A stretch of DNA of 64,000 bases from Schmidtea polychroa (Eukaryota), in NCBI GenBank assembly GCA_044892525.1, contig CM097886.1, forward strand, positions 110,918,001-110,982,000, written 5' to 3'. Every line of letters starts with the position of its first letter. Positions within the stretch are counted from its first letter, which is position 1. Of this stretch, positions 344 through 19,444 are shown one piece after another. Position numbers and translations under genes: made by a program. Under the pieces are notes generated by a model. The model was not told the origin of the DNA and made no database searches. It saw only the letters and a program-made list of their open reading frames with translations.

Positions 344-592
344 CGATTACGTAATAGTTCTAAAAATAATAGGCATCGTTCTAAAAATAATAGGCATCGT
401 TCTAAAAATATTAGGCATCGTTCTAAAAATATTAGGCATCGATTACATAATAGTTCTAAAAATATGAGGCATCGTTCTAAAAATATTAGGCATCGTTCTA
501 AAAATATTAGGCATCGATTACATAATAGTTCTAAAAATATGTGGCATCGTTCTAAAAATGTGAGGCATCGATCTAAAAATATGAGGCATCGT
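344..592. repeat. Tandem array of ~21-bp units (GTTCTAAAAATATTAGGCATC and variants)
   Basis: About 10 near-identical adjacent copies with occasional GATTAC(A/G)TAATA insertions; the same units recur at ~1168-1270. Confidence 0.9.
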
Positions 593-609
593 GTGATAGA
601 AATCTATAT

Positions 610-1160
610 CTCATTAGAAAGGTCTTGCACTGAGCTTTAAGATGAGCTATCGTTCAATAAAATCTGTTGGTGGGAATATTAATTTTTGGGATGAAAAAAA
701 GTAGGAGCCCGCTGGATCATTTAATATTTTGAAAAATAATAATAATTTAACTATGAAAAGATGGTGGTCATCAATTGTTAATAACTATACCAATAAGAAT
801 GATGATAATAATATTTATATATCAGTAGATAGATCTTGCACTGGGCTTTAAAATAAGTGTTTGATTAATAAATTCGGATGATGGGAACATTAAGTTTTGG
901 GCAAACGAAAACCAGGTCACCGCTAGACCACTAATAATATTTTGAATAATACTATTAATTTAACTTTGAAAAGATGGTGGTCATCAATTGTTAATAACTT
1001 TACCAATAATAATGATGATAATAATATTTATATATCAATAGATAGATCCCGCGCTGGGCTTTACAATGAGCTATCGATCAATGAAATAAAATGATGGGAA
1101 CGATACCTCTTGGACAAACGAAAACCATGTCACCGCTAGATCACTAATAATATTTTGAAT
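610..1160. repeat. Degenerate ~210-bp tandem repeat (about 2.5 units)
   Basis: The block AAAAGATGGTGGTCATCAATTGTTAATAACT...GATAATAATATTTATATATCA.TAGATAGATC occurs at ~755-835 and ~968-1048. Confidence 0.8.
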
Positions 1161-1340
1161 AATAATGAGGCATCGATTACGTAATAGTTCTAAAAATATG
1201 AGACATCGTTCTAAAAATATGAGACATTGATTACGTAATAGTTCTAAAAATATGTGGCATCGTTCTAAAAAATTTTTTCCCGGGGGGAGGAGGAGGGGGG
1301 AGTATGTGATCCAGAGGGCCCCTGGTCTGGATGGCCCCAA

Positions 1341-3263: not shown

Positions 3264-3464
3264 AAGACGGGCAACAAATTAAAAAGAATATTGTAATAAA
3301 TTGTGAAGTCATTCAGTAAATTACAACAAAGTAATAACATATTTCGGAAATATTTCAACAGATGTAAAATATTTAGGCAAATTGTTACAAGATTATAAAA
3401 ATATTGCAACAAAGTAATAAAATAATACAACATTTTTAACTCTAGAATATACATTGACACAATA

Positions 3465-3890
3465 AAAATTCAAGAAAATTATTTTTACTAGATAAAAATA
3501 CAAAAAAAATTGAAGAAAACATGTGTGTATTACACACAACATACGAGACATTTCTAATCAATCCATTTTATAGAAAATTAAATTTTATCTATATAATATA
3601 TAAATAATATTCCAAGAAAATTACATTAACTACATGAAAAAATACAAATTTATCGTAAAAACATGTATATATTACACACAAAACAAGATACATAATTTTT
3701 AATCAAGCTATTTTATAGAAAATTAAATTTTATCTATATAATATATGAATAAAAATCCAAGAAAATTACGTTAACCACGCGAAAAATACAAATTTATCGT
3801 AAAAACATGTGTTTATTACACACAAAGCGACAAACTAAAATTATAATTGCGCCATTTTGTAGAGAATTAAATTCTGCCTATACATGGTTA
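3465..3890. repeat. ~143-bp tandem repeat, 3 degenerate units
   Basis: CAAGAAAATT...AAAAATACAAA...AAAACATGT...ATTACACACAA recurs with ~142-145 bp period. Confidence 0.75.
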
Positions 3891-4269
3891 CACCTAAATC
3901 CCAATCGGACAAAGAGAAAAGAGACAAAGGGGTGAAAAAGAGAAAAAACAGTAGAGTAGGGTAACATGTGAACCCGGGAACAAAGAACTATTACATAATT
4001 GATGATGTCACGAAGGAAATTACGCCATACTCCCGGAGAGGGGTATTTTTAATTTTTTTAAAATTTTTTAAATTACATAATAAAGAACTATTACACAATT
4101 AAGGCGCATTACGTAACAAAGGCATATTACAAAATAAAGACATATTACGTAATAAAGACATATGACTCATCGATTTAAACAAAGACATTACGTGATAAAG
4201 ACACATCATTAATTGGGGAAAATGGAATGTTTTAAATTAATTTGGAGCCTGATTGTCTGATATGATATT

Positions 4270-4531
4270 AGTAGTGAGGAATCTATGCACCCCAGCACCC
4301 CCACCCTCAAAAAAAACAGCGCTATTGACCCATATTTTCCACATTTATATGCTTTTTTACCCCATATTCTTCACTTTTTTTAACTTTTAAACTTTGTCCC
4401 CTATTGCCATTAACCCTTAATTTCTTCCCTTAAAAGTAAAAAAGTTCGGAATAGATGTATTTATAGATTAGTAATTCCGAGAAAAGGTAACGGGGTGCAT
4501 AGATTCCTCACTACTTGGTCTTAAGGATTTA
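4270..4531 (+). repeat. Left terminal inverted repeat of the Polinton
   Basis: Reverse complement of 19181-19444; by eye identical except an A8 vs A10 homopolymer. Confidence 0.96.
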
Positions 4532-4934
4532 ATGTTATAAGGATTTAATGTTATAAGAATATCAGATTACCTAATTCATAATGATCTAGGTCGCCTGATC
4601 ACCTTAAGGTTTTGAAAGTTTTAAAAATAAAAAATTTTATGAAAATAGTAAAACTGCTCTGAGGGGACAGTGGTATTTTTTTTTTTTTCACTGTCCCCTC
4701 AACAGTTTTTTTTTGATCCGGATCATTTTTTTTTTTTTTATTTATCAACCTCTTTCGTTTATCAAATCTCTTCCAATATACAAGCTGGCCAGACTCATAC
4801 ATCAGAATCAATCCGATAATAGCAGCACGCCTTATTATTCGCTTCTCGCTCACGAAGTCGATTTCAACGGCGTTTTAAGCGTGCTGCTCGAAAGTACAAA
4901 TGAATTCGAAAGCGAATCCGAAAGAGGTCCGAAA

Positions 4935-5024
4935 ACAACTGAGAAATAAATGTGCACATTACCGGGATCGATCCGGGGGTGTTCGAAAGACAGGTGGCGA
5001 TAATTACCGGTTCGCCACCATCAC
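4935..5024 (-). ncRNA. Putative tRNA-like / Pol III structured RNA (unit 3)
   Basis: Minus strand: A-box-like TGGCGAACCGG, D-arm-like GCGA/TCGC, 7-nt loop CTTTCGA on a 3-bp stem, T-arm-like CCGG-ATCGATC-CCGG, TTTT at ~4933-4936. No acceptor stem. Confidence 0.4.
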
Positions 5025-5206
5025 CCGTTTCAATATTTTTTTTTTCATATTTATGTTTAAAAAATAATTAATTTATAAAAAAATAAAATAAAATAAAATA
5101 AATAAAATAAAATATACAAGTACTTTATAAATATAAGATACCCACACTATTTTCAATATTATTTTCAAATTTTTAATATTATTTTATGTTGAAAAAAAAA
5201 CTAACC

Positions 5207-5503
5207 TCAGATGTGATTTGAACCACTATCCATTTGAACCACTGCGCCATCAAGGTTTGGATTTTTGTCATTTTTTAGACTATAAATAATCGATTCAAGT
5301 TCTTTAACTCTTTCCTGTAATTGTTTCATTTTCTTCAATCTTATATCAGCAACATCTACAGCCTTCATATAAAAATGTCGATACTTTTCATTATCTACCA
5401 TCAACTCTTTGATGTATTCTAATGGTTCTTCTTCTCTTCTTTTCATTCTCTTATGTTTAACTTCATTCAATTCATTTCTCATTCTTTCTTTTAACTCATC
5501 CAT
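5207..5503 (-). CDS. Small basic/coiled-coil orphan protein (98 aa) of the Polinton
   Basis: Intact ORF with the TAAAAATG start context shared with other element genes; charged helical heptad pattern. Confidence 0.65.
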   Translation of the reverse strand: MDELKERMRNELNEVKHKRMKRREEEPLEYIKELMVDNEKYRHFYMKAVDVADIRLKKMKQLQERVKELESIIYSLKNDKNPNLDGAVVQMDSGSNHI

Positions 5504-5674
5504 TTTTATAAATATTTTTTTATTGGATATATTAATTTTTGGTAGCTTAAGTTAAAACGTTTTTGATCTTAAATTTCCAAGAGTTGCCGTTGACCAATCA
5601 CCTTTAAAATTTGTACAAGTACTAAATCGAGTATGCTGATCAATATTTTGTTTAAAAAAAAATTTGAAAAGAAA

Positions 5675-5747
5675 TGACCGAAATGGGATTTGAACCCATT
5701 GGTATTGGCAATGCAGTCGAGTGCTATTACCACTAAGCTATTAGAGC
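5675..5747 (-). ncRNA. tRNA-Cys(GCA)-derived 73-nt tRNA-like RNA gene (unit 1)
   Basis: Invariant tRNA positions in register (T8, A14, G15, D-loop GG, T33, G34C35A36, G53-T-T-C-A-A, C61). Perfect T-stem ATGGG/CCCAT, acceptor 5/7 pairs, broken anticodon stem (2/5), oligo-T downstream. Confidence 0.75.
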
Positions 5748-5917
5748 TATACTCAATATAAAATAAGTTGTTAATGTGTGACTATTTATTGATGAAATTA
5801 ATAATTAATTATTCATTTTCTCGACAACTACCACTCAGATCCATCTGAAAATTTAAATATATACTAAAATCAGTACGCTGAATCAGATTCCGTTGAAAAA
5901 AAAATATCGAAAAAAAT

Positions 5918-5990
5918 TGACCAAAATCGAAAATTGAACCCGGACTCCCGGTGATAAAATTGAAGCCTATTCCCACTCCGCTATAATGGC
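5918..5990 (-). ncRNA. Second 73-nt tRNA-like RNA gene (unit 2), apparently paralogous to unit 1
   Basis: A-box TAGCGGAGTGG, B-box GGTTCAATT, ends GGTCA followed by T7. Shares ATAGC..AGTGG.AATAG, GGGTTCAA and TTT.GGTCA with unit 1; stems weak. Confidence 0.6.
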
Positions 5991-6046
5991 TTACATAATA
6001 TATTTAATTAATCCTATTGTGTGTGTGTAAATTTTAATATATAAAA

Positions 6047-7339
6047 ATGAATAATATAAATCTTAAAATTCAAGAAAAAAATAAATTAAATCTTGATTAT
6101 AATAAAGAATTTACTCATGAAATCAAGAAAAACGATGTACTTAAAATCTCCCCAACTTCAGGATCTATTGCAAACTTAAATCGTAGGGGTGATATAGTTT
6201 TTCAATCTCTTCAAACATCAAACCCTATAGATATTTGTAATGCCAAATTATATTATAAAATCGAATTAGAAATTGAAGCAAACAAAGATATAACCCTAGA
6301 AAATAATTTCTTTCCAAATTTATTCTCCAATATGAGATTAAAACTAGGATCATCAGAAATTGAAACTGTTTTACATCCGGGAGTATATTCTACAATGTTA
6401 AATTTTATTTTGACTGGTTGTGATTATAAAAATGAATATGGTGAATTAACAGGCTGGATTCCTGATGTTAATAAAGGAGATTTAGATAAAGATGGTTTAG
6501 ATATAAATTATGGTTACTATAAAAGAGCTGAACTTTATAAATCTAAAAAATTTGAAGGTTATTTTGAATTAAAACACTTGTTTGGATTCCTTCAAAACTA
6601 TAATCGTATACTTCATAATGTTTTTATAGAATTCATCTGTAATAGAGTAGAAGGTGATAAAAGATTGTTCTATGGAGCTGTAGATACAAAAGCTAAATTA
6701 AAATTATCAACACTTGAATTACATATACCTGAATGGACATTAAACCCACATTCTGAGATTAAACTCCTTGAAAGATTAAATTCCAACAAGTCTATAAATG
6801 TAAATTATTTAAATAGAATCTGTAGTGAATTTAGTATGACAGAGGGTTCAACATATTCTATAAAGGTAGCAAATTTAGCATACCGACCAAGATATATCTT
6901 GATTGGATTCAAAGAAACAGATTCATCTTTCCAAAAAAATAACAATCTATTTATTCAAAAGATTGGAGATGATAATTTAAAAACAATACAAATTCAATTA
7001 AATAGTTCTTATTATCCAATAAATAGAATGGAATTTAATATTGAAAATAATGAAAACATATTCCCATATCTAAATTATATTGAAACATGTTATGATTTCA
7101 AAGTTGAACCGCAATTAGGTTTAGAAGATTTCAAAAATTTATATTCTATATTTTGTATAAATGTTTCAGACCAAGATGATCGCCTAGCCATAAATAATGT
7201 TGATGTTACACTTCATGTAACAAAGGATTCTAATTTTAAAGCTAAAGTATATACATTAATATTAGAAGAAAAGAAAATAGAAATGAAATTATATAGTGGA
7301 AAGATTTCAATAATCGAAAATGTTAGGGGAGATTCTTGA
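6047..7339 (+). CDS. Major capsid protein (double jelly-roll, hexon-like), 430 aa
   Basis: Size, beta-rich composition and Polinton MCP-like motifs (SP...LN..G.I.F, NNFFPNLFS.MRL..G..EIE, PRYILIGF, FCINVS). Confidence 0.85.
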   Translation: MNNINLKIQEKNKLNLDYNKEFTHEIKKNDVLKISPTSGSIANLNRRGDIVFQSLQTSNPIDICNAKLYYKIELEIEANKDITLENNFFPNLFSNMRLKLGSSEIETVLHPGVYSTMLNFILTGCDYKNEYGELTGWIPDVNKGDLDKDGLDINYGYYKRAELYKSKKFEGYFELKHLFGFLQNYNRILHNVFIEFICNRVEGDKRLFYGAVDTKAKLKLSTLELHIPEWTLNPHSEIKLLERLNSNKSINVNYLNRICSEFSMTEGSTYSIKVANLAYRPRYILIGFKETDSSFQKNNNLFIQKIGDDNLKTIQIQLNSSYYPINRMEFNIENNENIFPYLNYIETCYDFKVEPQLGLEDFKNLYSIFCINVSDQDDRLAINNVDVTLHVTKDSNFKAKVYTLILEEKKIEMKLYSGKISIIENVRGDS

Positions 7340-7368
7340 TATAATCCCTGATATTTTAACATTTTAAA

Positions 7369-8769
7369 ATGTCTTTAAATAAATATTGGAGATGTGAAAC
7401 TTGTAATTGTCAAGTTACAAGACATCATAAAGCAAGCCATCTTAAAACTAAAAAACATACAGTAGGTGACCTAATTCCACGAGCTGGAGGCGATTTGCAA
7501 TCTTCAAAAACAACATCTTCAATATTAAAACCTTTTACTACAGAAAAATATCCAGGTGAAAGACATTTATTTAAACACAACTACACCGGACCAGGAACAA
7601 GATTAGATATTAGATTAGATGAAAATAATAATCCCAAACAAGGAGAAGAACCAATAAATAGAATTGATCAAGCAGCTTTAAAACATGACATTGCATACAA
7701 TTCAACAAATCTTAGAGATAGACATGTTGCAGATGTGAATTTAATACATGATTTAAATAGTATCCAAAATCCATCAACCCAAGAAAAGATTCAAAGAGCT
7801 CTAGTTAAATTAGCAATGAAAGGTAAGATTTTCATAGGCTTAGGACACAGTCCGATCACCATGGGTGCAAGACTTCCTAGGAAAGCAAAAGATGTTGCTT
7901 ATAAAAAGATTATCGAACAAGCAGAGATTGAAAGATCCCTCGAGAGTACAGCCAAGACTAGTTTACAAACCCCAACAGAATCAGAAATAAAATATGCAAA
8001 GGAATTACACCATGAATTTAGAAAAAATAAAAAATATTTAAAAGTTCAAGTACATGAAAAAGATCAAACATGGTCTGCAGATTTAGCCAAATCATCAGAC
8101 CCTGAAAAATATAAAATAATTTTAACTGTAATAGATTTATATACAAGATTTGCTTTTGCAAGATGTTTAGAAAATAAAACAGGATATTCTATTACAGAAG
8201 CATTTGAAAATATATTTGAAGAAAATCAAAGAATCCCAAAATATTTATGGTGTGATAAAGGAACAGAATTTTATAACAAAGTTTTTACAAAGTTTTTAAA
8301 TGAAAATGATATTAAATTATATTCAACAGAAAACGAAGGAAAAGCAGTCGTAGTTGAAAGATTAAATAGAACATTAAAAAATAAAATGTGGAAATATTTT
8401 ACTACTATTGGAAAACAAAAATGGAACAATGAATTGTTACAAAAGATTGTAAATGAATATAATAATGATGTACATAGTTCTATAAAATTAACACCTTTAA
8501 ATGCTTCCATGAAGCCTGAAACCATTAAAGTGGTAAATATTGAAAATGATGTTATTGAAAAACCAAAGTTTAAAATTGGTGACCGAGTAAGAATATTTAA
8601 ATATAAAAATAAATTTGAAAAAGGATTCACAGCAAAATGGACAAATGAAATTTTTATTATAAATAAAAAAAATTATACAACTCCAATAACATATAGCATC
8701 TTTGATTTAAATAATGAAAAAATATTAGGTAGATTTTATAATAATGAACTACAGAAAACAGATTTTTAA
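7369..8769 (+). CDS. int: ZnF-PLA2-retroviral-type integrase fusion protein, 466 aa
   Basis: N-terminal C2H2 finger; parvovirus-type PLA2 motifs YTGPG and KHDIAY; rve DDE triad (WSADL, WCDKGTEF, VERLNRTLK); C-terminal KFKIGDRVRI...W..EIF...Y...EL domain. Confidence 0.93.
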   Translation: MSLNKYWRCETCNCQVTRHHKASHLKTKKHTVGDLIPRAGGDLQSSKTTSSILKPFTTEKYPGERHLFKHNYTGPGTRLDIRLDENNNPKQGEEPINRIDQAALKHDIAYNSTNLRDRHVADVNLIHDLNSIQNPSTQEKIQRALVKLAMKGKIFIGLGHSPITMGARLPRKAKDVAYKKIIEQAEIERSLESTAKTSLQTPTESEIKYAKELHHEFRKNKKYLKVQVHEKDQTWSADLAKSSDPEKYKIILTVIDLYTRFAFARCLENKTGYSITEAFENIFEENQRIPKYLWCDKGTEFYNKVFTKFLNENDIKLYSTENEGKAVVVERLNRTLKNKMWKYFTTIGKQKWNNELLQKIVNEYNNDVHSSIKLTPLNASMKPETIKVVNIENDVIEKPKFKIGDRVRIFKYKNKFEKGFTAKWTNEIFIINKKNYTTPITYSIFDLNNEKILGRFYNNELQKTDF

Positions 8770-8780
8770 GTCGACAAGCC

Positions 8781-9586
8781 CTAAAACAAACTTTTCCATA
8801 TTTCAGCTTCTTCTCTATCCAAATAAATATAATTATATTTTTCTTTCCAATGATTATCAACAAACATATCAAACATATTCTTATCAGGTTCAACATTTGA
8901 AAATAAATCATTATAAATCATATTCTTATCACGGCGATCTAATTTAAAAAATATAAAACAATTGGAATTATTTCTTATTGAATTTTTATCTAAAGCATAA
9001 TATGTTTGAGATATATAAATAACATTACAATTATTATGTCGACCTCGTGTAAAGTAACTCTTTTGAATCTCTTGATTTTCATATTAACAACATCATCAAA
9101 TATAACTAGATTCTTTTTATCTTTAGGAAGTAAATCACAATGTAAAACATCTTCAGGTTTATTAGAGAATAAAACTTGAATTGCCTCCTGCCCTTCTTCA
9201 CAAATATAATCATTTTTATTACTAATATCTGATTCTAAAATCTTTTCCTTATACCAATCAACCATATCAAAAGGTTGAAAAACTTCTTCAGGACACCTAT
9301 GTTGATTTTTAAAAATATCAATTATTGCTTTTTTAGTTAATTTATTTTCAAATCCACATTTCAAAAGTTGTAATTCTGGTTGATTTATGGTTGTAGAATA
9401 AAAGATTAAATTATTATAATCTAAAAAATCATCTTCAAGTAACATTCTCAAAACAAGTACATTCTTTCCACATCCAGAAGAACCAACAATTAATAATCTA
9501 AAATTATCAGGAAATACTTTATTATTAAATTTACTCTTATGTCTATTTAAAATTGGTTTCCAAATTATTGGACTTCGTACATCCAT
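8781..9586 (-). CDS. A32/FtsK-like packaging ATPase with a 1-nt frameshift at ~9076-9079
   Basis: Walker A GSSGCGK and Walker B LVIFDD. Adding one A to ATGAAAATC restores NQEIQKSYFTRGRHNNCNVIYISQTYY..IRNNSNCFIFF to TAG at 8781-8783. Likely start ATG at 9586 (CAAAATG), not the TTG at 9625. Confidence 0.9.
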
Positions 9587-9601
9587 TTTGTTTATTATAA
9601 A

Positions 9602-10180
9602 ATGACAACTGAAGAATCTTTGCAAGAATTAATAAATTCAAATAAAAATAAATCAGTAGTAATTGATGGTAAAAAATATTTTATTGGAAAACATGTAAAA
9701 GAACAAGTTAGAGCGAAGATCCACGAAGCTAAAGAAGGTGGCATTCTTCCATTAGCTGCTTTAATACCTGCAATCATTGCTGGTTTATCAGGTGCTGCTG
9801 GAATAGCTGGAGGAATTGCAACTACAGTTCAAAAAGATAAAGAATCTCAAAAGACAGACCTAGAAAAAGAAAAACTACAAACTGAAATCGATTCAATGAA
9901 GAAGGTAGGGCAAGCTAAAGGGGGAGTGTCCGTTGGAAAGGGTCTCTATCTTAATCCATATGAGGGGAGTCGGCAAAAGTCTCAGGGCAAAGGTCTCTAT
10001 CTTGATCCTTATAAAGGTAGAGGTTTAAATGATTTTTTAAAAAATCAAATTTCTACATCTGAATCTTTATCTTCAAAAGATAAAGAAGATTTAAAAAAAA
10101 TATGTAAATCTTTAAAGAATGGATGCCTTTGTAAAACTAAAAATGGTAAAGGATTATACTTGAAGCCCTTCGAACTATGA
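9602..10180 (+). CDS. Adenovirus pX-like core / membrane-active precursor protein, 192 aa
   Basis: KEGG-ILPLAALIPAIIAGLSGAAGIAGGIA resembles the adenoviral pX C-terminus (GG-ILPLLIPLIAAAIG); three GKGLYLxP(Y/F) repeats. Confidence 0.65.
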   Translation: MTTEESLQELINSNKNKSVVIDGKKYFIGKHVKEQVRAKIHEAKEGGILPLAALIPAIIAGLSGAAGIAGGIATTVQKDKESQKTDLEKEKLQTEIDSMKKVGQAKGGVSVGKGLYLNPYEGSRQKSQGKGLYLDPYKGRGLNDFLKNQISTSESLSSKDKEDLKKICKSLKNGCLCKTKNGKGLYLKPFEL

Positions 10181-10202
10181 TACCATTTTTGATACCATTA
10201 AA

Positions 10203-11084
10203 ATGGTATATGAAGAAAGATTAGCACTTTTAAAAAAATTACAATCAGAACAAGATAAATATAATAAAAAAGATACAACTCAACATGCTGAATCTATAAT
10301 ATTAAATGAGGTAATAACACAACAACAGGGGCCAACAATTAAAGCTATAAAAGAGTTGGAAGATTTCAATGAGCAAGCAAAATTTAAAGAGTTAGAAGAT
10401 AAAAAACAAAAAATAAAAGAACTAGAGTGGCAGGATAAAGAAAAAGAATCCAGTAAAAACCATCCTGAAAGAAATCAAAGAAAACGCAGAAGAATTTCTA
10501 ATGTGGAAGAAGAAGAAATGTTTTTAAAAACAAAACCTCTTAAAGTTGATCCTAAAATTAGAGATGATTTACCTCCTTCAATTAGACCCACATTTAATAC
10601 TAATACTGAAGGATATCAAATAATAACAATTAATAAACAAAACTTTACTTTATATTCAAATTCAGAAAATAAATCACGTATTCATTCACAAAATGTTTAT
10701 AATAATGAATATTTAGACTTTGAATTTACAGATGATTTTTATAGATTACTTTGTGGATATTCTTCAGATGATGTTGAAGAAATTAAAAAATATTTAAATT
10801 TAATAAGATTAATAAGAGCTAGTTCTAAAGCAAAATATATTCAAGATTTAAAGAATTATTTAAATAAAAATGAAAAGGGTTATGTTGTTACAGAGGGAGA
10901 GGGATTAATTAGTGAAGGTGGTAAACCAAATCCCATCAATCTTTTTATTGAATTAAGAAAACTATTAGCTGCAAGGAAAGCAGGACATAATAATTTAGAT
11001 TCTGATATTTTAAAGATTTCTAAAGATTTGTTAAAACAAGGAATAATTTCAAAAGATAAATTTAATAAGTATACGAAGTTATAA
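10203..11084 (+). CDS. Conserved Polinton protein of unknown function, 293 aa
   Basis: Intact ORF with TAAAATG start. C-terminal GEGL...ELRKLLAARKAGHNN...I..ISKDLLKQGII matches a motif I recall in Polinton ORFs. Confidence 0.7.
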   Translation: MVYEERLALLKKLQSEQDKYNKKDTTQHAESIILNEVITQQQGPTIKAIKELEDFNEQAKFKELEDKKQKIKELEWQDKEKESSKNHPERNQRKRRRISNVEEEEMFLKTKPLKVDPKIRDDLPPSIRPTFNTNTEGYQIITINKQNFTLYSNSENKSRIHSQNVYNNEYLDFEFTDDFYRLLCGYSSDDVEEIKKYLNLIRLIRASSKAKYIQDLKNYLNKNEKGYVVTEGEGLISEGGKPNPINLFIELRKLLAARKAGHNNLDSDILKISKDLLKQGIISKDKFNKYTKL

Positions 11085-11106
11085 ATACGAAGTTTTAAAA
11101 TACAAA

Positions 11107-11511
11107 ATGACTCCTTCAATATTAGATTTTTTAAAAACATTTGGAATAAATGCAAAAACAAATTTTGATTTAAAAGATTATGCAAATTATTTAAATTTAA
11201 AAATTAAAATATTAATGAATGATGAATTATCAAGTCTGGAGAGTCCCCTGAATATAATAATCAATTATCAAAATTCAAATGAAAAAGGATCTCATTGGGT
11301 TTGTATATATAAGAAATCTATCTACTTTGATTCTTTTGGGATTAAACCTACTAAAGAAGTTGAAGATTATCTCTTGAGGGGTTCTCCGATTGATTCCCCA
11401 AATGGTTATACTTTTAACTCTTTACAAGTTCAACCTTTGAATACTAAAATATGTGGTATTTTAAGTTTATATGTTTTGTATAGATTGAAAGGGGCATACG
11501 CAGGATTTTGA
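11107..11511 (+). CDS. Adenain-like cysteine protease (maturation protease)
   Basis: GSHWV, YFDSFG, QVQ and CGILSLY give the His/Asp/Gln/Cys catalytic set. The C-terminus may be frameshifted at GGGG 11491-11494. Confidence 0.92.
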   Translation: MTPSILDFLKTFGINAKTNFDLKDYANYLNLKIKILMNDELSSLESPLNIIINYQNSNEKGSHWVCIYKKSIYFDSFGIKPTKEVEDYLLRGSPIDSPNGYTFNSLQVQPLNTKICGILSLYVLYRLKGAYAGF

Positions 11512-11605
11512 ATCTATAATTCAAGAAATTTATAATGATCTAGAATCTCTACTATAAGGATTTTTACTATAAGGATTTTTACTATATGAATTTACTACTA
11601 AAGAA

Positions 11606-12370
11606 ATGGAGCTTCACAACCCTCCGGAAGATAATTTTAAAAAAATGGTAAACATAATGTCAGATAAATATTCAAGAACTTTATCTATAAATTCAAAAGA
11701 ATCAGACTTTACTATAAACTTTCAAGATTCAATTAAATTAGATCAAAATTTAAATTATGAATTGGGGCTATTATGGTTTTGTGCTTATAATACTATTTTT
11801 AATATAACTAAAGATAATAATAAATTTACTATTCAAACTCGTGATGGGCATAAACCAGAAATTATAACAATAGAACCTGGGGCATATGAGATAAAAGATT
11901 TAAATGATATACTTTCTAAAAAAACAAATGAAGGTATTAAAATTAAAATGGATATACCAACTTCAAAATGTGTAATGACTTTGAAGAATATAAAAATTAG
12001 TTTTTTAGATAATTGTTTCTTTCACACAGTTTTAGGATTTAAACCTATGGATATAACAATAAAAGAAGATAAAATAATAACATCAGAACATATTATAAAA
12101 ATAATAAATACAAACACAATAAATATTCATTGCGATTGTATAACAGGTTCTTATAATAATGGTAAACAAACAAATGTTTTATATTCCTTTCCCTCAAACA
12201 CAGTTCCTATGGGATATAAAATAGTTGAAAGAATGAATCCTCCAAATTATTTACCTTTATGTAGAAAATTTATAATGGATATTAATTTTAAAATTCTTAA
12301 TCAAGAAGGAGAATTGATTGATTTTAATGGAGAAGAGATTTCAATGTATTTACATTTGAAACAGGTTTGA
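11606..12370 (+). CDS. Minor capsid protein (penton, single jelly-roll), 254 aa
   Basis: Polinton penton motifs YNTIFNIT..NNKF, G.YEI.DL, VLGF, INIHCD.I.GSY.NG...VLYSF, P.YLPL, Q.G.LIDFNGE.I...LHL. Confidence 0.9.
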   Translation: MELHNPPEDNFKKMVNIMSDKYSRTLSINSKESDFTINFQDSIKLDQNLNYELGLLWFCAYNTIFNITKDNNKFTIQTRDGHKPEIITIEPGAYEIKDLNDILSKKTNEGIKIKMDIPTSKCVMTLKNIKISFLDNCFFHTVLGFKPMDITIKEDKIITSEHIIKIINTNTINIHCDCITGSYNNGKQTNVLYSFPSNTVPMGYKIVERMNPPNYLPLCRKFIMDINFKILNQEGELIDFNGEEISMYLHLKQV

Positions 12371-12394
12371 AGATTCATTTTAAATTATTAATAA

Positions 12395-13405
12395 ATGAGT
12401 TCTTATATTCCATGTAATAGAGGTGGTGGAACAATAAAAACAGGGTTTAATACAGAAGAAATATTAACTTTAACAGAAAATAAATATATTAATGAAATAG
12501 GTGATTCAATGAAGGGTGATTTAATTTTAAATGGACACAAGATAAAAGAATTATCTTTTCCAACTGATGAAGCTGATGCAGTTAATAAGAAATATGTAGA
12601 TGGTGTTAAAAAATATACTGATTTAACAACAACAAGAATTGAAAGTTCATTAACAACAAAAATTGATTCAATGGAATCAAAGCTTAATAATATCGAACAA
12701 CGATTTAATGATAAATTTGACAAGTTACAAAGTCTGTTAACTGAACAAGTTGTAAAGTTAAATACTGCTATATTAAATTCTAAAGATAAACAAATTATGA
12801 ATACTAAATTTAATACAATATATAAAATAATAAATGAGATGATTACATCATTTAATAAAAGAATTTCAAATTTAGAGTCTCATGGAACACACATTAACAC
12901 CACACATAGTATTAGAAAAAGAGCTGCTGAATTAGAACAGAATAAAACATTATTACCCCATACATATAAACATTTTATAGAACCAAGTTTAATAACAACA
13001 AACAGTAAAGAATGGGGTGTTTTTATGGTTGTAAAAATTATTGATCCTTATTTCTTTTTGTTTGATGATGATAATGAAAGAATGAAATGGTTTGTGAAAT
13101 GTGATTATAATAGTATGCTTGAAAAGGGTGATGTTATAATGACTAGTTATGATTTACCACACGGAGATTGGTATGTTAATACTCATTCACATGGACTACA
13201 TAAAGTTAAAAGTAAGAATATTCATTTTTCTAGTTCACTTGTACAATATATAGATTTAATATTTTATGAAAAAAAGGTTGATGTTGATGAAGTTCGTAAA
13301 GCATTGAGAGAATTGTATAAAGATATCCTCTCAACAAGAGTTTCTTTTGATATCCGAGTATTGGTGCCAGATGGTGCTCAGAAGAATAAAGTCTTATTTT
13401 TTTAA
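12395..13405 (+). CDS. Putative fiber / receptor-binding protein, 336 aa
   Basis: GDSMKGDLILNGHKIKEL..P....DAVNKKYVD tail-fiber-type motif, then a long coiled coil and a beta-rich C-terminus; lies directly after the penton gene. Confidence 0.55.
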   Translation: MSSYIPCNRGGGTIKTGFNTEEILTLTENKYINEIGDSMKGDLILNGHKIKELSFPTDEADAVNKKYVDGVKKYTDLTTTRIESSLTTKIDSMESKLNNIEQRFNDKFDKLQSLLTEQVVKLNTAILNSKDKQIMNTKFNTIYKIINEMITSFNKRISNLESHGTHINTTHSIRKRAAELEQNKTLLPHTYKHFIEPSLITTNSKEWGVFMVVKIIDPYFFLFDDDNERMKWFVKCDYNSMLEKGDVIMTSYDLPHGDWYVNTHSHGLHKVKSKNIHFSSSLVQYIDLIFYEKKVDVDEVRKALRELYKDILSTRVSFDIRVLVPDGAQKNKVLFF

Positions 13406-13413
13406 TTATTAAA

Positions 13414-14025
13414 ATGGAAGAAGTAAGAGAAGAAAAAATTTACCCAGAATTGAGATCATCAGGATATTATTCCGAAGGTCACAAAGGTTCCAAGGCCTCG
13501 GCTCCCACAGAACTTGAAATTATGAGAGTAAAAGAATTTAAATCAGAAACCTTACATATAAAAGATTTATTAAAGCATTATAAAAAAATTAAAAATAGAT
13601 GGAATAAAGGGAATACAGTTTTAAAAGTTATAGGTTATTCTTTAGGATTTGCATCTGCAATATTAACAGTTATTTTACCCATAACTTTACCAGTTGTTAC
13701 TCTTGCACCTGTAATACTTGGAAGTATTTCTGTGGCTGATGGTTTCTTAACTGAAATAGTTTCATTATCTTATACTTCTAAAAAGAAAAGTTTATATAGA
13801 GAAGTTTGTTTATCAATAGAATTAGGAATCTCTAAATTATTTTTATTTCAATTAAAAGCTTTGGAAGATGGAATCCTGACAGACGAAGAAATAATGAAAT
13901 CAAATCAAATAATACAAGATATAAAGAATGAGGTTATAAGATTAAAAAGGGAGGGCATGGTGGCTAATGTTATAAGTAATAAAAAAACATCTCGAGAAAA
14001 ATGGTTAAAGAATTCTTACTTATAA
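13414..14025 (+). CDS. Polinton membrane protein (two hydrophobic helices), 203 aa
   Basis: IYPEL...SAP N-terminus, hydrophobic VIGYSLGFASAILTVILPITLPVVTLAPVILGSISV, and an LEDG.L..EE motif; intact ORF. Confidence 0.7.
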   Translation: MEEVREEKIYPELRSSGYYSEGHKGSKASAPTELEIMRVKEFKSETLHIKDLLKHYKKIKNRWNKGNTVLKVIGYSLGFASAILTVILPITLPVVTLAPVILGSISVADGFLTEIVSLSYTSKKKSLYREVCLSIELGISKLFLFQLKALEDGILTDEEIMKSNQIIQDIKNEVIRLKREGMVANVISNKKTSREKWLKNSYL

Positions 14026-14103
14026 AATGGGTGTATTTTTAAAAAAGTAGATCAGGTTGCTATAGTTGCTTAAATTAATTGTCGACATTTTATTATTAAA
14101 AAA

Positions 14104-14658
14104 TTAAATATCGTTGAAAGCCAACCTATGAATCATTAATTTATGATATTTAAATTCTTTATCACTTAGACCTTTTATATATTCAGGATCAGTATTAAAA
14201 TATTTAAGTTCTAAACATATAGGATTAAAAACTTGAGAATATAAAGGTTTCTCGATTTCTCTCTGGGGATAAATAATTTCAACATTATAAATATCAAGAT
14301 CAGTAATCTTTGTATCATATAACTTCTTCAACTTTTCTAGATTTTTTATTATAGGGATTAAATTATTTCCAATAGGTAGAGTTGTCTTTAAATCACTTAG
14401 TATGAATCTCTTATCATCATAATTTGATAATGATACTTTTTGAGATTCTATCAAGTGAATATCATGGTTTTCACTTTTAAGTTGATGTATTTCATCAATT
14501 TTATCTTTATGATTTGGGTTTAATGTATCTATATAATCTTGATGAGAAAGATTCTTTGCAACCACTCTCTGTATTCCTTTACATCTGTTATCCTTTAAAT
14601 TAGTAATATTTTTTATAATTTCAAAAATGTTATTTTCTTGATTTTTAGTTTCCATCAT
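14104..14658 (-). CDS. Stand-alone paralog of the pPolB C-terminal domain, 184 aa
   Basis: Aligns without gaps to the PolB tail from KGIQ through HKLM (about 60% identity by hand over ~150 aa). Has its own TAAAATG start and no catalytic motifs. Confidence 0.85.
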   Translation of the reverse strand: MMETKNQENNIFEIIKNITNLKDNRCKGIQRVVAKNLSHQDYIDTLNPNHKDKIDEIHQLKSENHDIHLIESQKVSLSNYDDKRFILSDLKTTLPIGNNLIPIIKNLEKLKKLYDTKITDLDIYNVEIIYPQREIEKPLYSQVFNPICLELKYFNTDPEYIKGLSDKEFKYHKLMIHRLAFNDI

Positions 14659-14682
14659 TTTATAGTGTTAAAATTCTAATTC

Positions 14683-17600
14683 TTAGAGCAGTCGTAATTG
14701 ATTTATAATTATTTCTGCAGTAATGCTTTTTAACATTAATTTATGTGATTTAAAGTCTTCTGGTGTTAGTCCTTGGATATATTCAGGATCAGTATTAAAA
14801 TATTTAAGTTCTATAGGTTTTATATTTTGAACTTGATTATATAAAGGTTTAGGAATTAATATTTCAGGATATTGGATTTCTACTTTAGCAAGTTGAAGGT
14901 CTGTAATCTCTAGGTTATAAATTTCATTTATTTTATCAAGATTTTTTATTATAGGGATTAAATCATTTCCAATAGGTAATGTTGTCTTCAAGTCAGAAAG
15001 TATAAATCTTTTATCATCATAATTTGTTATAGCAATCTTGTTACACTCTTCAAGATATATATTATGTTTCTCTGATTTAAGATGATGGGTTTTAGCAATT
15101 TTATTTTTATAATTTATATTTAATGAATCTTTATACTCTTGATGTGTGAAGGTTTTTGACACTGATTTTTGAATTCCTTTACTTTTATTTTCTTTATAGC
15201 TTTTCGGGTTTTCAGGGAATGAAGGATATTCAAATGTTCGATCTACTTCAACAGATCCTTCTATTATAAATTTTATTGTATGCTCTTTCATAATTGGTTT
15301 GTCTTTCATTTCAAGAGAATATTGTTTAGGTCTAATAAACACTCCTCCAGTTATTGGAGTATTTGGTTTTTCATCTTTAAAAGTAAACAACTCTCCAGAA
15401 TTGTTTATTAATTTATTTAAGGTTGGATCTTCACGTATTTCTTTTTTGAAATCTTTGCTATATCCTTTTAAAAACATACTATCAGTGTCCATTGCATGCA
15501 TGGATATTCGATCTCCAAAATGTGGTACTAGAACATCATAGTAAGCTTCATACATTTGAAGCTTTGAAAGTTCTAAAATTGAAAACCCTATAAAGATTGG
15601 TTTATTATAAGTTTTTACAGAGTTTTTAATCTCTATGGCTATAAGGTTACTAGAGAATATCTCGGCATTTTTAAATGTGGGCTTTCCAATTATCCAGTTG
15701 TACCTATTAAGGTCTTTGGATGTATTGGTCAAAAGCTCTACACGTGTGTACTTGTCTATATTCTCCATGGTCTTTCCAAAGACCGCATTGTTCAGGAGTT
15801 TGTAAATCATATCAAGAAATGCATTTCCAGCTCTCTTTGCTGCATTTCTTTTCAAAATATTTCCCTCTATGAATTTTTTCATAAAAGGGGCTTGTCGAAA
15901 TTTAATAATGGAATGTACTTTTTTTAAAACCATTCCATGGGAGAGATAAAACTGAAGGAGTCTATAATGACAAAGGTAATCAGTTTTATCCGTCTGATCG
16001 CATAAAAGTTTTATACAGGGCGATCTATCCTGAGCCATCTGCCAGTCTGAAAGTTCTTCAGTCGAGATCTTTCTTCTTACTGGAGCAAATGGAAAGAATC
16101 TTGTCCTGGATTTTATTTCATTGGGATATTCAAGATCACATTCTATGACATATCCATATTGTGAATTCTTTGGTGTTTTTAGAATTTCTTGTATTAATTC
16201 CTCAGTGGGCTCTTCCCAGGTGAACTTGCCAATTGGAAGGTATTGAGTCATTACTCCTCCATATAAAGCTGTTGCATCTATATACATTATTTCAGAAGGA
16301 TTAGAAAGACCTTCCAGTATTTCCTCACGATCTTCTGGGTTTGTTATTTCTACATATAGAGCATCAGTATCTTTGAAAAATTTAGGATAAAGAGTTGTAA
16401 AATTATTAGCATTTATTTCTCTATTCCCTTGTACTGAAGAAATACCTCCTCTAATATTATGTTTATATACATTAAACATATCAAGGTCAACTAATAATTC
16501 AATGGTTTTATTTCTTTCTGCTATGTCTTCATCGGTCCATATGCTATATAATAATATATCCCAAGCTAGAGAGGGAGCGGTTATATAATTATAAGGTTTT
16601 AATTCAAAAGCTTTTGAAAATGTCTCGAAGTAATCAGCTAAGATATAAACATCTAAGGAAAGATACATGTCAGTATATTCTCCAAGGTTTCTACAGTTGA
16701 AAAGATTCCACATTTTAAGTGCACGGGAATATTCCTGATCAGAAATCCCTGATTGTGTTAAAACAGAAAAGAAATCTTCTTGAGCTGGGAGTAATTCATT
16801 ATATTTTTCAAAGGAGTCTATATAATCATATGGATAGATTCCTTTTGCTAGACAGGTATTATATTCCTCTAATGGAATATTGTTTTTTAATAACACATGT
16901 TCTTTTGTATATTTAAAATCCTCAGGGTTCATAGTTTTTGCAATGCCATCCAAAGACATCCCTAAGAAATTTAAGGAGTCCAAAAACTTAAAGCATCCAT
17001 ATTGAATGCTTTTATATTTTTCTTTTGTAAGTCCAATAACCTTGAAAGAGTTTTTAGCATTTGCAGCTAGATGTTTAATGAACAGGTGAATATCATAGCC
17101 AAAAAGATTGTGAAATATAAATGGTATGTGTGTTGGTTTTTTACAATTGAGATTACAATTTTTATGGGCCGCTCCTCTGTAATTATTTTCTATTTTAAAA
17201 TGATCATGGTCAGGAACCTTAAGTTCACTAGTTGACTCCTCATCCTCGAACTCTTGTTTGCACATCCAGCAGTGTGTTGCATTTTTATATTCTTCCTCTT
17301 GTTCTTCTGAAAAATTCATAGGAAAGTTGGATTTTAATATTATATATAATTCATGTTCTAGATTATTTAAAGTTTCAACAAAATGGTCTAGAGTCTCTTT
17401 GTCAGAAGTTCCCCTAAATGAATATTCTCTAGATTCTACAAGTTCTGGATAATTACTTTTGAAAAACATTTTATAAGCAGAGGGTAATTGTTTTGTTAGT
17501 TTTACAGTATTAGTTTTTGTTCGTCTTAGTTTTACATTTATAGCTTCAAAATCACAATAAACCACTCCCAATGCTTCTAATAGATTGGAATAGTTTTTAA

Positions 17601-19068
17601 ACCTCATATTAGCATTTTTCTTGTGTGGCATTTTTATTAAAGCAGGTTGATTCTTACAACAGAGTCTCTCATGTTTAATAGCAGCAAGTTTTGAAGTTGA
17701 ATGATATAAACATCTTTTACAACATATGCCTCCACGAATGAGTGTGTTTCCTTTCATAAAACTTTGAAAATTCTTTATTAAGATATAATGAAGTTTTTTA
17801 TCTAACATAGTGCCTCCGGACGCAGTGCTTTCTGCTTCTGGTTCTAATGAAATGCCTTCTTCTGCTTCCATAACCTTCGGGTGAATACTTTGAACCTCTT
17901 CACCATATTCTTCTCCATCAAACTCTTCGTCTGCTTTACCTTCTTCTAATATTAAAAGATCTACTTCTCTCTTTTCATCTGAGATTTCCATATTAGAAAT
18001 GTAAATAGGAATAATTTGTTTATAATTTTTATATTTTCTAGTTTTTGTAATTTTGGTTGGAATGAATTGATAAATATTAATTTTAAGATTATTTAATTTT
18101 TCAAATGCTAGAACATCTTCAATTTTCATTGGGTGGGAAAAATCTTTTGGATATATTAATTCAGATTCATATTCTTCATATTTTTGAACTCTCTGTGGGT
18201 TAGTTGCTTGAGGATGTAAGTGTGCAAGTATTGACCATTGAAAACATTTATTATCTTTATTCTGTACATTTATAACATGGTTGGAGGTGAATGGTGTATG
18301 AATAAAAGATTTAGGATTTGGTGGTGCACCTCTCCAGTATTCAATCTCTATGTTTTGAAAAGAGTGGAATCTTAAATTAGATTCTCCTAGTTCTTGTTCC
18401 ACCTGTTCTTGTTTTTCTTCCAATTCTTTAGCTATATCATTAACAAGTTTATTTCCTGCTTTTGTAGAAAATAAATATTTATATGAGGTTTCAATTTTTA
18501 CATCTAGAGGCATTGCGATCGAATCATCTCCTCTCCAGTATTTTGCATTTCCTGTAAATTTAACTTTTATAACATTAAATCTTGATCTACCAAATTTTTT
18601 TATAGCATCATCCATTGATGATATTATTTTTTTTTTATTTTCTCTTATATATTGCATGATTGATCTGGGTCCTCGTTTTACTTCTGCAATTACATCGGTG
18701 TGATTGAAGTTGTCCCAATTAAACTCTAGTTTTTCAGCTTTTTCAGTCATTGAGTTTGAATCAGAATCTTTTGCTTCAAGACCACAATCTTCTATGTGTC
18801 TTAAGTAAAAAGATTTTATCTTCATATTTTTTCCACATGCTGAACATTCGAATATTTCTCTGTTTTTAGGAACTCCAATACAATTTTTAAAATATTTCTT
18901 ATAACCTGAAAATAAATATCTATCCTTACATTTAGTACAGATTTTGGAATTAGTGTCATCTAGTGTGTTAGCTTTTATTAAATGGTCTTTTGATTTTTTA
19001 TGAGATGTTAAAGCAGTTTTATTTTTAAAATATTTTTCACAAATTTCACAATTGAAAATAGCTTCCAT
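14683..19068 (-). CDS. polB: Protein-primed family B DNA polymerase (N-terminal ZnF, terminal protein region, vOTU-like region, Endo VII finger), 1461 aa
   Basis: Exo motifs YCDFE, FHNLFGYD, YLSLDV; Pol motifs DATALYG, KLLNNAVFGK, MDTDS; EndoVII-like CWMC..DHDH..YRGAAH..CN; NKCF...HY Cys/His pair. Confidence 0.96.
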   Translation of the reverse strand: MEAIFNCEICEKYFKNKTALTSHKKSKDHLIKANTLDDTNSKICTKCKDRYLFSGYKKYFKNCIGVPKNREIFECSACGKNMKIKSFYLRHIEDCGLEAKDSDSNSMTEKAEKLEFNWDNFNHTDVIAEVKRGPRSIMQYIRENKKKIISSMDDAIKKFGRSRFNVIKVKFTGNAKYWRGDDSIAMPLDVKIETSYKYLFSTKAGNKLVNDIAKELEEKQEQVEQELGESNLRFHSFQNIEIEYWRGAPPNPKSFIHTPFTSNHVINVQNKDNKCFQWSILAHLHPQATNPQRVQKYEEYESELIYPKDFSHPMKIEDVLAFEKLNNLKINIYQFIPTKITKTRKYKNYKQIIPIYISNMEISDEKREVDLLILEEGKADEEFDGEEYGEEVQSIHPKVMEAEEGISLEPEAESTASGGTMLDKKLHYILIKNFQSFMKGNTLIRGGICCKRCLYHSTSKLAAIKHERLCCKNQPALIKMPHKKNANMRFKNYSNLLEALGVVYCDFEAINVKLRRTKTNTVKLTKQLPSAYKMFFKSNYPELVESREYSFRGTSDKETLDHFVETLNNLEHELYIILKSNFPMNFSEEQEEEYKNATHCWMCKQEFEDEESTSELKVPDHDHFKIENNYRGAAHKNCNLNCKKPTHIPFIFHNLFGYDIHLFIKHLAANAKNSFKVIGLTKEKYKSIQYGCFKFLDSLNFLGMSLDGIAKTMNPEDFKYTKEHVLLKNNIPLEEYNTCLAKGIYPYDYIDSFEKYNELLPAQEDFFSVLTQSGISDQEYSRALKMWNLFNCRNLGEYTDMYLSLDVYILADYFETFSKAFELKPYNYITAPSLAWDILLYSIWTDEDIAERNKTIELLVDLDMFNVYKHNIRGGISSVQGNREINANNFTTLYPKFFKDTDALYVEITNPEDREEILEGLSNPSEIMYIDATALYGGVMTQYLPIGKFTWEEPTEELIQEILKTPKNSQYGYVIECDLEYPNEIKSRTRFFPFAPVRRKISTEELSDWQMAQDRSPCIKLLCDQTDKTDYLCHYRLLQFYLSHGMVLKKVHSIIKFRQAPFMKKFIEGNILKRNAAKRAGNAFLDMIYKLLNNAVFGKTMENIDKYTRVELLTNTSKDLNRYNWIIGKPTFKNAEIFSSNLIAIEIKNSVKTYNKPIFIGFSILELSKLQMYEAYYDVLVPHFGDRISMHAMDTDSMFLKGYSKDFKKEIREDPTLNKLINNSGELFTFKDEKPNTPITGGVFIRPKQYSLEMKDKPIMKEHTIKFIIEGSVEVDRTFEYPSFPENPKSYKENKSKGIQKSVSKTFTHQEYKDSLNINYKNKIAKTHHLKSEKHNIYLEECNKIAITNYDDKRFILSDLKTTLPIGNDLIPIIKNLDKINEIYNLEITDLQLAKVEIQYPEILIPKPLYNQVQNIKPIELKYFNTDPEYIQGLTPEDFKSHKLMLKSITAEIIINQLRLL

Positions 19069-19180
19069 TTTTAAAAGAATTTTTTGGTTGGATACGATGT
19101 TTTGGTTTTGATATTAATTTTTATTAATTTTTAAATCCTTATAACGTTAAATCCTTAAATCCTTAAATCCTTTAAATCCT

Positions 19181-19444
19181 TAAATCCTTAAGACCAAGTA
19201 GTGAGGAATCTATGCACCCCGTTACCTTTTCTCGGAATTACTAATCTATAAATACATCTATTCCGAACTTTTTTACTTTTAAGGGAAGAAATTAAGGGTT
19301 AATGGCAATAGGGGACAAAGTTTAAAAGTTAAAAAAAGTGAAGAATATGGGGTAAAAAAGCATATAAATGTGGAAAATATGGGTCAATAGCGCTGTTTTT
19401 TTTTTGAGGGTGGGGGTGCTGGGGTGCATAGATTCCTCACTACT
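19181..19444 (-). repeat. Right terminal inverted repeat of the Polinton
   Basis: Reverse complement of 4270-4531; followed by TSD GATATT. Confidence 0.96.

What the first reader, a model, noticed from the sequence alone, without database searches (positions are those of the whole stretch)
5918..5990. Second 73-nt tRNA-like unit, head-to-head with the capsid gene
Seen: same length and same box placement as unit 1, the same GGTCA end, and an immediate T7 terminator; its 5' end is 57 bp from the MCP ATG on the opposite strand. The two units are conserved at A-box, B-box and 3' end but diverged between, like a VAI/VAII pair. Inference: TFIIIC bound here could also insulate or time capsid transcription.
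Basis: partly seen in the sequence, partly recalled or inferred. Interest (0 to 1): 0.72.

Follow-up and report, generated by a model that had tools for sequence, protein, structure and literature searches.

The report
tRNA-like duplicate in Polinton RNA cluster
This short stretch is a worn, duplicated tRNA look-alike, one of four small-RNA-type units lined up at one end of a virus-like jumping element in an animal genome; it suggests that these elements make their own small RNAs, but nothing yet shows that this unit is transcribed or controls the capsid gene beside it.

Summary
The unit is real. It lies at 5918-5990 (minus strand) inside a complete Polinton/Maverick (4270-19444), 56 bases from the capsid ATG. 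It matches a published A box at 11/11 and B box at 10/11 positions, and a T7 run follows one base after its end. It is a tandem paralogue of unit 1: 42/73 identical, 0/5000 shuffles, with homology running about 70 bases past the 3' end. It is no working tRNA: no Rfam hit, ARAGORN only at 85% threshold, no folding signal. Equal length and box placement are partly coincidental (A-to-B 44 vs 45; other copies carry one more base). It is not VA-RNA-like in structure. It is the first of four outward-facing A/B-box units; the fourth is a strongly folded ~400-nt candidate and the better VA analogue. Best reading: an element-encoded, probably weak Pol III unit making a non-decoding small RNA (0.45); decaying duplicate 0.3; capsid insulator or timer 0.15. 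The capsid leader looks like those of the other genes. Transcription is untested. The scan noted a similar cluster elsewhere in this genome (e1-7879910). I found no paper on such arrays in animal Polintons.

The parts
5918..5990 (-). Unit 2 (the finding): degenerate tRNA-derived unit with internal Pol III type-2 promoter boxes; tandem paralogue of unit 1
5973..5983 (-). A box of unit 2, 11/11 to the consensus given in PMC10137851
5930..5940 (-). B box of unit 2, 10/11 to that consensus, miss at tRNA position 61; 32 nt after the A box
5896..5916 (-). Double terminator-like tract of unit 2: T7 (5916-5910) and T9 (5904-5896)
5848..5892 (-). Downstream flank of unit 2, homologous to the flank of unit 1 (5606-5649); part of the duplicated cassette; both flanks hold a short 4+6+4 inverted repeat (5862, 5620)
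5991..6046 (.). 56-bp AT-rich spacer shared by unit 2 (upstream, predicted TFIIIB area) and the capsid gene leader
   Evidence: TFIIIB position inferred from PMC10137851
5675..5747 (-). Unit 1: tRNA-like, Rfam RF00005 32.4 bits (gathering 29), both boxes 11/11, intact T stem, broken anticodon stem; T9 at 5662-5654
5192..5256 (-). Unit 3: short A/B-box unit (A-to-B 26 in this copy) with T9 tract; overlaps the 3' end of a 98-aa ORF; other copies carry extra sequence inside it
   Evidence: (loose ends at 5228-5249)
4629..5030 (-). Unit 4: A box (5017) and B box (about 4974-4964) followed by about 300-400 nt of strongly folded sequence; first T>=5 run at 4634-4629
5207..5503 (-). 98-aa ORF between units 1 and 3, no Pfam family
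6047..7339 (+). Major capsid protein, double jelly roll (PF21738)
4270..19444 (.). Complete Polinton/Maverick: terminal inverted repeats (268/273 columns identical), 6-bp target duplication, integrase with PLA2-like domain (7369-8769), pPolB (14683-19068), A32-like ATPase (8990-9586)

Best explanation
Unit 2 is an element-encoded, tRNA-derived RNA polymerase III (type 2) unit. It arose with unit 1 by local tandem duplication of a cassette (unit, terminator, about 45 bases of flank; period 243) and is the first of four outward-facing A/B-box units between the capsid gene and the left terminal repeat of a Polinton. SHOWN: position, boxes, terminator tracts, paralogy, loss of the anticodon and D stems, presence in many other copies of the family. 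INFERRED: host TFIIIC binds the boxes, places TFIIIB in the 56-bp spacer, and Pol III makes a 75-90-nt RNA ending in the T7 run, probably more weakly than from units 1 and 4 because of the B-box miss and three internal T4 runs. The RNA cannot decode; what remains is the acceptor-plus-T-arm 'top half', so it most likely acts as a tRNA-shaped decoy or spare copy within a viral small-RNA array, comparable in principle to gammaherpesvirus tRNA-like RNAs. The identity part alone I put at about 0.9; the confidence given is for the whole statement.
For: Polinton context. Strict A+B pairs: 3 in the whole window, all in this cluster, against a mean of 0.22 per shuffled window (50 shuffles); loose pairs 5 in 4600-6046 against a mean of 0.03 (0 of 2000). 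Unit 1-unit 2 similarity 0/5000; flank similarity 0/2000. A box 11/11, B box 10/11, gap 32 within the stated 30-40. T7 and T9 tracts. Residual cloverleaf: ARAGORN call at 85% threshold, against 1 such call in the other 58 kb and 10 of 1000 core shuffles. Acceptor 5/7 and T stem 4/5 paired while anticodon stem 2/5; one T-stem pair and one acceptor pair differ on both sides from unit 1 and still pair (two sequences only, register-dependent). Boxes better conserved than the middle, 17/22 vs 15/33, p=0.026 (partly circular, as boxes led to the unit). DNA-run contigs cover all 30 of 30 bins and the unit-2 bins at the same order as the capsid bins. Non-canonical box letters can be tolerated in other Pol III genes (PMC10137851, passages).
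Against: B box fails the strict motif quoted in PMC5391098. No Rfam hit, no ARAGORN call at default, no folding signal (z +0.41). Three internal T4 runs could stop Pol III early (effect recalled, species-dependent). Boxes are not better conserved than the untranscribed downstream flank (30/45, p=0.41), so neutral divergence after duplication is not excluded. No A/B unit beside the capsid gene in related metagenome loci. Rare DNA contigs skip unit 2 or units 1 and 2 together (joints 5778-5987, 5277-6040/6043, 5190-5998).
Confidence: 0.45

Rival explanations
1. Decaying duplicate: after tandem duplication unit 1 kept the function and unit 2 is a silent or nearly silent relic that rides along in the element.
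For: B-box miss at a strongly conserved position and internal T4 runs; D stem 2/4 and anticodon stem 2/5, two G-U pairs at the base of the T loop; no folding signal; flank as conserved as the boxes; many unit 1/unit 2 differences after the A box are transitions (8 of 13).
Against: A box perfect, B-box core and both T tracts kept although the middle is only 15/33 identical; the non-coding arm of a compact 15-kb element carries it in many copies; the window copy has private letters elsewhere (5671, 7118, 7295), so the B-box miss may be private too.
Confidence: 0.3
2. Cis-acting site: TFIIIC/TFIIIB bound at unit 2 insulates the capsid promoter from silencing or blocks it until late, the RNA being incidental.
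For: Head-to-head layout with only 56 bp between, the stretch where TFIIIB binds for type-2 genes (PMC10137851 passages). tRNA genes and extra-TFIIIC sites act as chromatin barriers in yeasts (PMC2040200 abstract; PMC3395662 start of abstract). In a planarian, Polintons are piRNA and chromatin-silencing targets (PMC8532177 passages; relevant only if the host is such an animal, which I did not establish).
Against: The B box, the main TFIIIC anchor, is the weakest of the four in this unit. The capsid leader has the same T-run plus A-rich ATG context as the other 11 ORFs examined. L001 and L002 place other genes right before the capsid gene, with no A/B unit. Four units in a row, one a long folded RNA candidate, fit an RNA array better than a single switch.
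Confidence: 0.15
3. Passenger of host origin: a tRNA pseudogene or tRNA-derived SINE head that inserted into the element and was then duplicated, with no role for the element.
For: Unit 1 passes the Rfam tRNA threshold; tRNA genes are reported in polinton-like viruses, possibly taken from hosts (PMC12220804 passages).
Against: No SINE body, A tail or target duplication seen around unit 2; no second copy in the other 62 kb of the window; no rise in DNA depth over the unit relative to the capsid gene (contig depth is a crude measure); all four units face the same way.
Confidence: 0.08
4. Chance motif in AT-rich DNA.
For: Loose A+B pairs occur about once per shuffled 64 kb (mean 1.12); a T-rich stretch at 32913-32985 matches unit 2 at 41/73.
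Against: 0/5000 and 0/2000 shuffle tests for unit and flank; 2/5000 for the local box pair.
Confidence: 0.02

Closest known systems
Murine gammaherpesvirus 68 TMERs (tRNA-miRNA-encoded RNAs)
   Same: Clustered, virus-encoded, tRNA-like Pol III type-2 units; the tRNA-like part alone can carry function (PMC8223928, passages).
   Different: Unit 2 has no pre-miRNA hairpin before its terminator, keeps only part of a cloverleaf and sits in an integrated Polinton; no sequence relationship tested.
Adenovirus VA-I/VA-II RNAs (and EBV EBER1/2)
   Same: Type-2 A/B-box promoters (PMC10137851); tandem pair in one orientation; host element of the adenovirus-related class (PMC8502044).
   Different: Unit 2 is about 73 nt with no stable fold and no Rfam match; VA RNAs are about 160 nt with long stems (recalled). 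Unit 4 is the better analogue.
tRNA genes in polinton-like viruses, virophages and MELD viruses
   Same: tRNA-related sequence inside a Polinton-class genome; 558 tRNA hits reported in a collection of 8300 PLV/virophage genomes (PMC12220804, passages); tRNA flags in MELD viruses (PMC8502044 legend).
   Different: Those are called as tRNA genes and read as codon compensation; unit 2 fails default tRNA finders, has no anticodon stem and would be missed by those scans.
tDNA barriers and extra-TFIIIC (ETC) sites
   Same: Box elements next to a Pol II gene in an element exposed to silencing.
   Different: Barrier or ETC function depends on TFIIIC binding through the B box, which is non-consensus here; nothing tested.
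Polinton/Maverick (adintovirus-type, PLA2-domain-bearing)
   Same: Terminal inverted repeats, 6-bp duplication, pPolB, rve integrase, double-jelly-roll capsid, A32-like ATPase, PLA2-like domain.
   Different: About 1.5 kb of largely non-coding left arm with four A/B-box units, not described in the papers that my searches returned.

Membership tests
Polinton/Maverick (host element) | Terminal inverted repeats and 6-bp target-site duplication (definition recalled) | tested here: met
   268/273 columns identical; same 6 bases on both sides
Polinton/Maverick (host element) | Protein-primed PolB, rve integrase, capsid protein | tested here: met
   PF03175, PF00665, PF21738 above cut-off
Polinton/Maverick (host element) | Packaging ATPase | tested here: inconclusive
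   PF04665 E=0.0031, 17.5 bits, below the 22.8 cut-off
Pol III type-2 transcription unit | A box | tested here: met
   11/11 to the consensus in PMC10137851
Pol III type-2 transcription unit | B box | tested here: inconclusive
   10/11 to PMC10137851; fails the strict motif of PMC5391098; state in other copies not visible (one search showed 40 of 197 variant rows)
Pol III type-2 transcription unit | B box 30-40 nt after A box; downstream T-run terminator | tested here: met
   gap 32 nt; T7 and T9
Pol III type-2 transcription unit | Transcription by Pol III | not testable with these tools
   only contigs of guessed-RNA runs were available
Functional tRNA gene (RF00005) | Reaches Rfam or ARAGORN threshold | tested here: not met
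   ARAGORN only at 85% threshold
Functional tRNA gene (RF00005) | Four paired stems with an anticodon arm | tested here: not met
   acceptor 5/7, D 2/4, anticodon 2/5 (both G-U), T 4/5; ARAGORN's alternative fold has a collapsed D loop
Adenovirus VA RNA | About 160 nt, stable terminal, central and apical stems (recalled) | tested here: not met
   73 nt, z +0.41; no VA family among Rfam matches
Adenovirus VA RNA | Tandem pair of type-2 genes in one orientation | tested here: met
   units 1 and 2, period 243
Adenovirus VA RNA | Blocks host dsRNA sensors or Dicer | not testable with these tools
   needs experiments
MHV68 TMER | Pre-miRNA hairpin(s) after the tRNA-like part in the same transcript | tested here: not met
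   T7 follows one base after the unit; flank has no folding signal (z +0.78)
MHV68 TMER | Triplicated overlapping A box | not tested
   feature from PMC8223928; not scored
tRNA-derived SINE | Body, A-rich tail, target duplication, dispersal outside the element (recalled) | tested here: not met
   none seen at the unit; no other copy in the window; genome-wide dispersal not testable, no genome held
tDNA barrier / ETC site | TFIIIC occupancy and boundary activity | not testable with these tools
   only the box sequence could be scored

The most novel reading that the evidence does not exclude
An endogenous animal Polinton carries its own Pol III small-RNA array, a functional counterpart of adenovirus VA RNAs and herpesvirus TMERs: three tRNA 'top-half' mimics plus one long folded RNA that blunt host RNA-based defence during the element's viral phase, with unit 2 doubling as a switch whose TFIIIB footprint covers the capsid start.
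Probability: 0.2. Interest if true: 0.8.

Novelty: new variant of a known kind. Interest (0 to 1): 0.5.

Why it matters
Polintons are treated as protein-coding cassettes, and whether animal Polintons still act as viruses is open. A fixed array of Pol III units would be a virus-like trait that default tRNA and Rfam scans miss, and would give short, easily assayed RNAs as markers of element activity. It would also link the small-RNA strategy of adenoviruses to their Polinton relatives. Unit 2 alone is the weakest member of the array; most of the interest lies in the array and in unit 4.

Tried and rejected
No host genome is held, so copies could not be compared one by one. No relatives in viral contigs with capsid, capsid alignment, integrase or terminal motif or in prokaryote genomes; a pPolB scan failed on a frame slip and was not repeated. 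Metagenome scan gave 37 loci: ARAGORN on 23 of 37 found 0 genes; Rfam on 20 of 37 found only a hairpin in L002; the box scan on 37 of 37 found 3 loose pairs, all read as lying in coding sequence (L005 judged by eye). 14 of 37 hold 500 or more bases before the capsid start; whether any holds an element end was not tested. Expression: no RNA holder listed; X1 and X2 are guessed RNA, one study, contigs only. X1 has 2 contigs over 5943, X2 none; an X1 contig spans unit 1 with both flanks (5539-5813), so DNA or long transcripts are present; none of this bears on a 73-nt RNA. Phage blastn gave no useful parent tRNA for unit 2 or unit 1 (best E 0.6 and 2); a cysteine-type origin for unit 1 rests on its loop letters in the Rfam register and recall, and ARAGORN reads another anticodon. 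The UCA/'SeC' label of the relaxed ARAGORN fold and a stop-reading triplet in the standard register were rejected, as no sound anticodon arm exists. My first cloverleaf count for unit 2 used unit 1's register and was replaced. Similarity of unit 3 or 4 to units 1 and 2 is not significant (108-257 of 2000-5000 shuffles), nor are the upstream flanks of units 1 and 2 (340/2000). The sigma-70 scan is irrelevant and at chance. The 98-aa ORF stayed unassigned. Not found in print: searches (open-licence papers only).

Full report
Context. The finding lies in a complete Polinton/Maverick at 4270-19444. Its terminal inverted repeats agree at 268 of 273 columns and the same six bases flank both ends. 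It encodes a double-jelly-roll capsid protein (6047-7339, PF21738), an rve integrase with a PLA2-like domain, a type-B polymerase and a weakly scoring A32-like ATPase. No host genome is held. Contigs of two DNA runs cover all 30 bins of 4250-7400 at a similar order of summed depth, so the left arm is part of many copies (contig depth is no copy number).

Observation. Unit 2 is at 5918-5990 on the minus strand, 56 bases from the capsid ATG. It is 42/73 identical to unit 1 without gaps, the best non-self match of unit 1 in the window, and 0 of 5000 shuffles reach the alignment score. Against the consensus boxes in PMC10137851 (passages) the A box matches 11/11 and the B box 10/11, 32 nt apart. 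The miss is at tRNA position 61, so the strict B-box motif quoted in PMC5391098 (passages) is not met. T7 begins one base after the unit and T9 follows; three T4 runs lie inside. A-to-B distance is 44 against 45 in unit 1, balanced by one extra base near the 3' end. Other copies carry one more base behind 5943 (35, 12 and 2 contigs in X5, X6, X1). Equal length is therefore an accident of this copy.

Origin. Homology to unit 1 does not stop at the shared 3' end. It runs through the terminator (20/25) and 45 more bases (30/45; 0 of 2000 shuffles), while the middle is 15/33 and the boxes 17/22. Units 1 and 2 are thus a local tandem duplication with period 243, not two separate tRNA captures. Boxes are better kept than the middle (p=0.026, partly circular) but not better than the untranscribed flank (p=0.41), so two sequences cannot separate selection from drift.

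Structure. Rfam finds unit 1 (32.4 bits, gathering 29) but not unit 2, even at E<=10 on 131 bases. ARAGORN finds nothing at default and unit 2 only at 85% of threshold, where the other 58 kb give 1 call and 10 of 1000 core shuffles pass. Anchored on its own boxes, unit 2 pairs 5/7 in the acceptor stem, 4/5 in the T stem, 2/4 in the D stem and 2/5 in the anticodon stem; unit 1 also pairs only 2/5 there. Folding energy is at shuffle level (z +0.41). It cannot be a decoding tRNA. What both units keep is the acceptor-plus-T-arm half, and unit 3 lacks the anticodon arm in this copy; that this half is the selected feature is my inference.

The array. All 3 strict A+B pairs of the 64-kb window (5740, 5249, 5017) lie between the capsid gene and the left repeat, against a mean of 0.22 per shuffled window; with the loose motif, unit 2 and a remnant at 5596 join them (5 in 1.4 kb; 0 of 2000 shuffles). 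All face the element end. Unit 4 continues into strongly folded sequence, on the minus strand only (z -4.26 vs -1.39; z -8.99 for 411 nt). An earlier agent reported a similar cluster on another piece of this genome (e1-7879910); I saw it after reaching this reading, and it is not independent support.

Mechanism. Most likely (0.45) host TFIIIC binds the boxes, TFIIIB sits in the 56-bp spacer, and Pol III makes a 75-90-nt non-decoding RNA, more weakly than from units 1 and 4. All of this is inferred; no transcript was seen, and the available runs are contigs of guessed RNA that cannot show such an RNA. A silent decaying duplicate (0.3) fits the B-box miss, internal T4 runs and lost stems. Whether the miss is family-wide is open: one search showed 40 of 197 variant rows, none at 5930-5931, and the window copy has private letters at 5671, 7118 and 7295. 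PMC10137851 reports that non-canonical box letters can be tolerated. Against it, this unit has the weakest B box, the capsid leader resembles those of the other 11 ORFs (prompted by e1-7879962), and relatives L001 and L002 have ordinary genes before the capsid gene and no A/B unit there. Those relatives are distant (47-50%) and rearranged, so they do not exclude the idea for this family.

Known systems. It works most like a virus-encoded type-2 Pol III unit of the TMER/VA/EBER kind (PMC8223928, passages), yet it is a member of none: no pre-miRNA hairpin before the terminator, no VA-like length or stems (VA features recalled). tRNA genes are already reported in polinton-like viruses (PMC12220804, passages; supplements not opened) and flagged in MELD viruses (PMC8502044, passages). 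Searches for Polinton or Maverick with tRNA-like, VA RNA, Pol III, B box or small RNA terms returned no paper on such arrays, judged from listings (open-licence library only). In a planarian, Polintons are piRNA targets (PMC8532177, passages), which would give a motive for RNA decoys if the host is similar.

Verdict. Real feature, partly misdescribed; a degenerate tandem paralogue within a four-unit Pol III-type array of an animal Polinton. New variant of a known kind, interest 0.5. The boldest reading not excluded, a functional VA/TMER-like array with unit 2 also gating the capsid gene, has probability 0.2 and would deserve 0.8.

Noticed in passing
window 4629-5030 (-): Unit 4: A and B boxes, then a strongly folded stretch (z -4.26 for 291 nt on the minus strand vs -1.39 on plus; z -8.99 for 411 nt with the 3' hairpin), including a hairpin of about 57 nt. 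No Rfam family at gathering score. Contigs of both guessed-RNA runs cover it and end in T runs at 4676 and 4706; their summed depth is largest here, but the tool warns that contig depth cannot rank genes. Best VA-RNA or pre-miRNA-like candidate of the array.
   Followed up: partly
window 5192-5256 (-): Unit 3 lacks an anticodon arm in this copy and overlaps the last codons of the 98-aa ORF; loose ends in X2 and X5 (54 contigs at 5239) show that other copies carry more sequence inside it.
   Followed up: partly
window 5620-5633 and 5862-5875: A 4+6+4 inverted repeat is kept behind both terminators; these are its only 2 occurrences in the 15-kb element, with 4 in the other 49 kb. Could be a protein site; untested.
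   Followed up: partly
window 5596 (-) and about 5843-5830 (-): A fifth loose A/B pair at 5596 and an A-box-like remnant at the matching place behind unit 2 may be traces of further decayed units.
   Followed up: no
window 14104-14658 (-) and 14683-15033: The 184-aa ORF repeats the C-terminal part of pPolB (300 nt, 75% identical, spacing 600): a second tandem duplication inside the element.
   Followed up: no
window 5207-19068, ORF starts: All 12 ORFs examined have an A-rich triplet before ATG (10 of 12 AAA) and most have a T run shortly upstream; L001 shows the same. Possible element-wide compact promoter or leader.
   Followed up: partly
window 7369-8769 (+): PLA2-like domain and rve integrase lie in one ORF; L001 has the same fusion.
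   Followed up: no
L002 2810-2889 (-): A pre-miRNA-like hairpin (mir-754 model, 48.6 bits, gathering 84) in an intergenic gap of a related element; no A/B pair found there.
   Followed up: partly
window 23762-24346, 44298-44852, 51022-51621: TRAF/MATH-domain and RING ORFs in the host flank, in line with an animal host; GIY-YIG (25497-26120) and DDE/Brinker (39233-39649) transposon remnants nearby.
   Followed up: no
window 354-1271 and 3516-3882: Tandem arrays of 21/33-nt and about 144-nt units left of the element.
   Followed up: no
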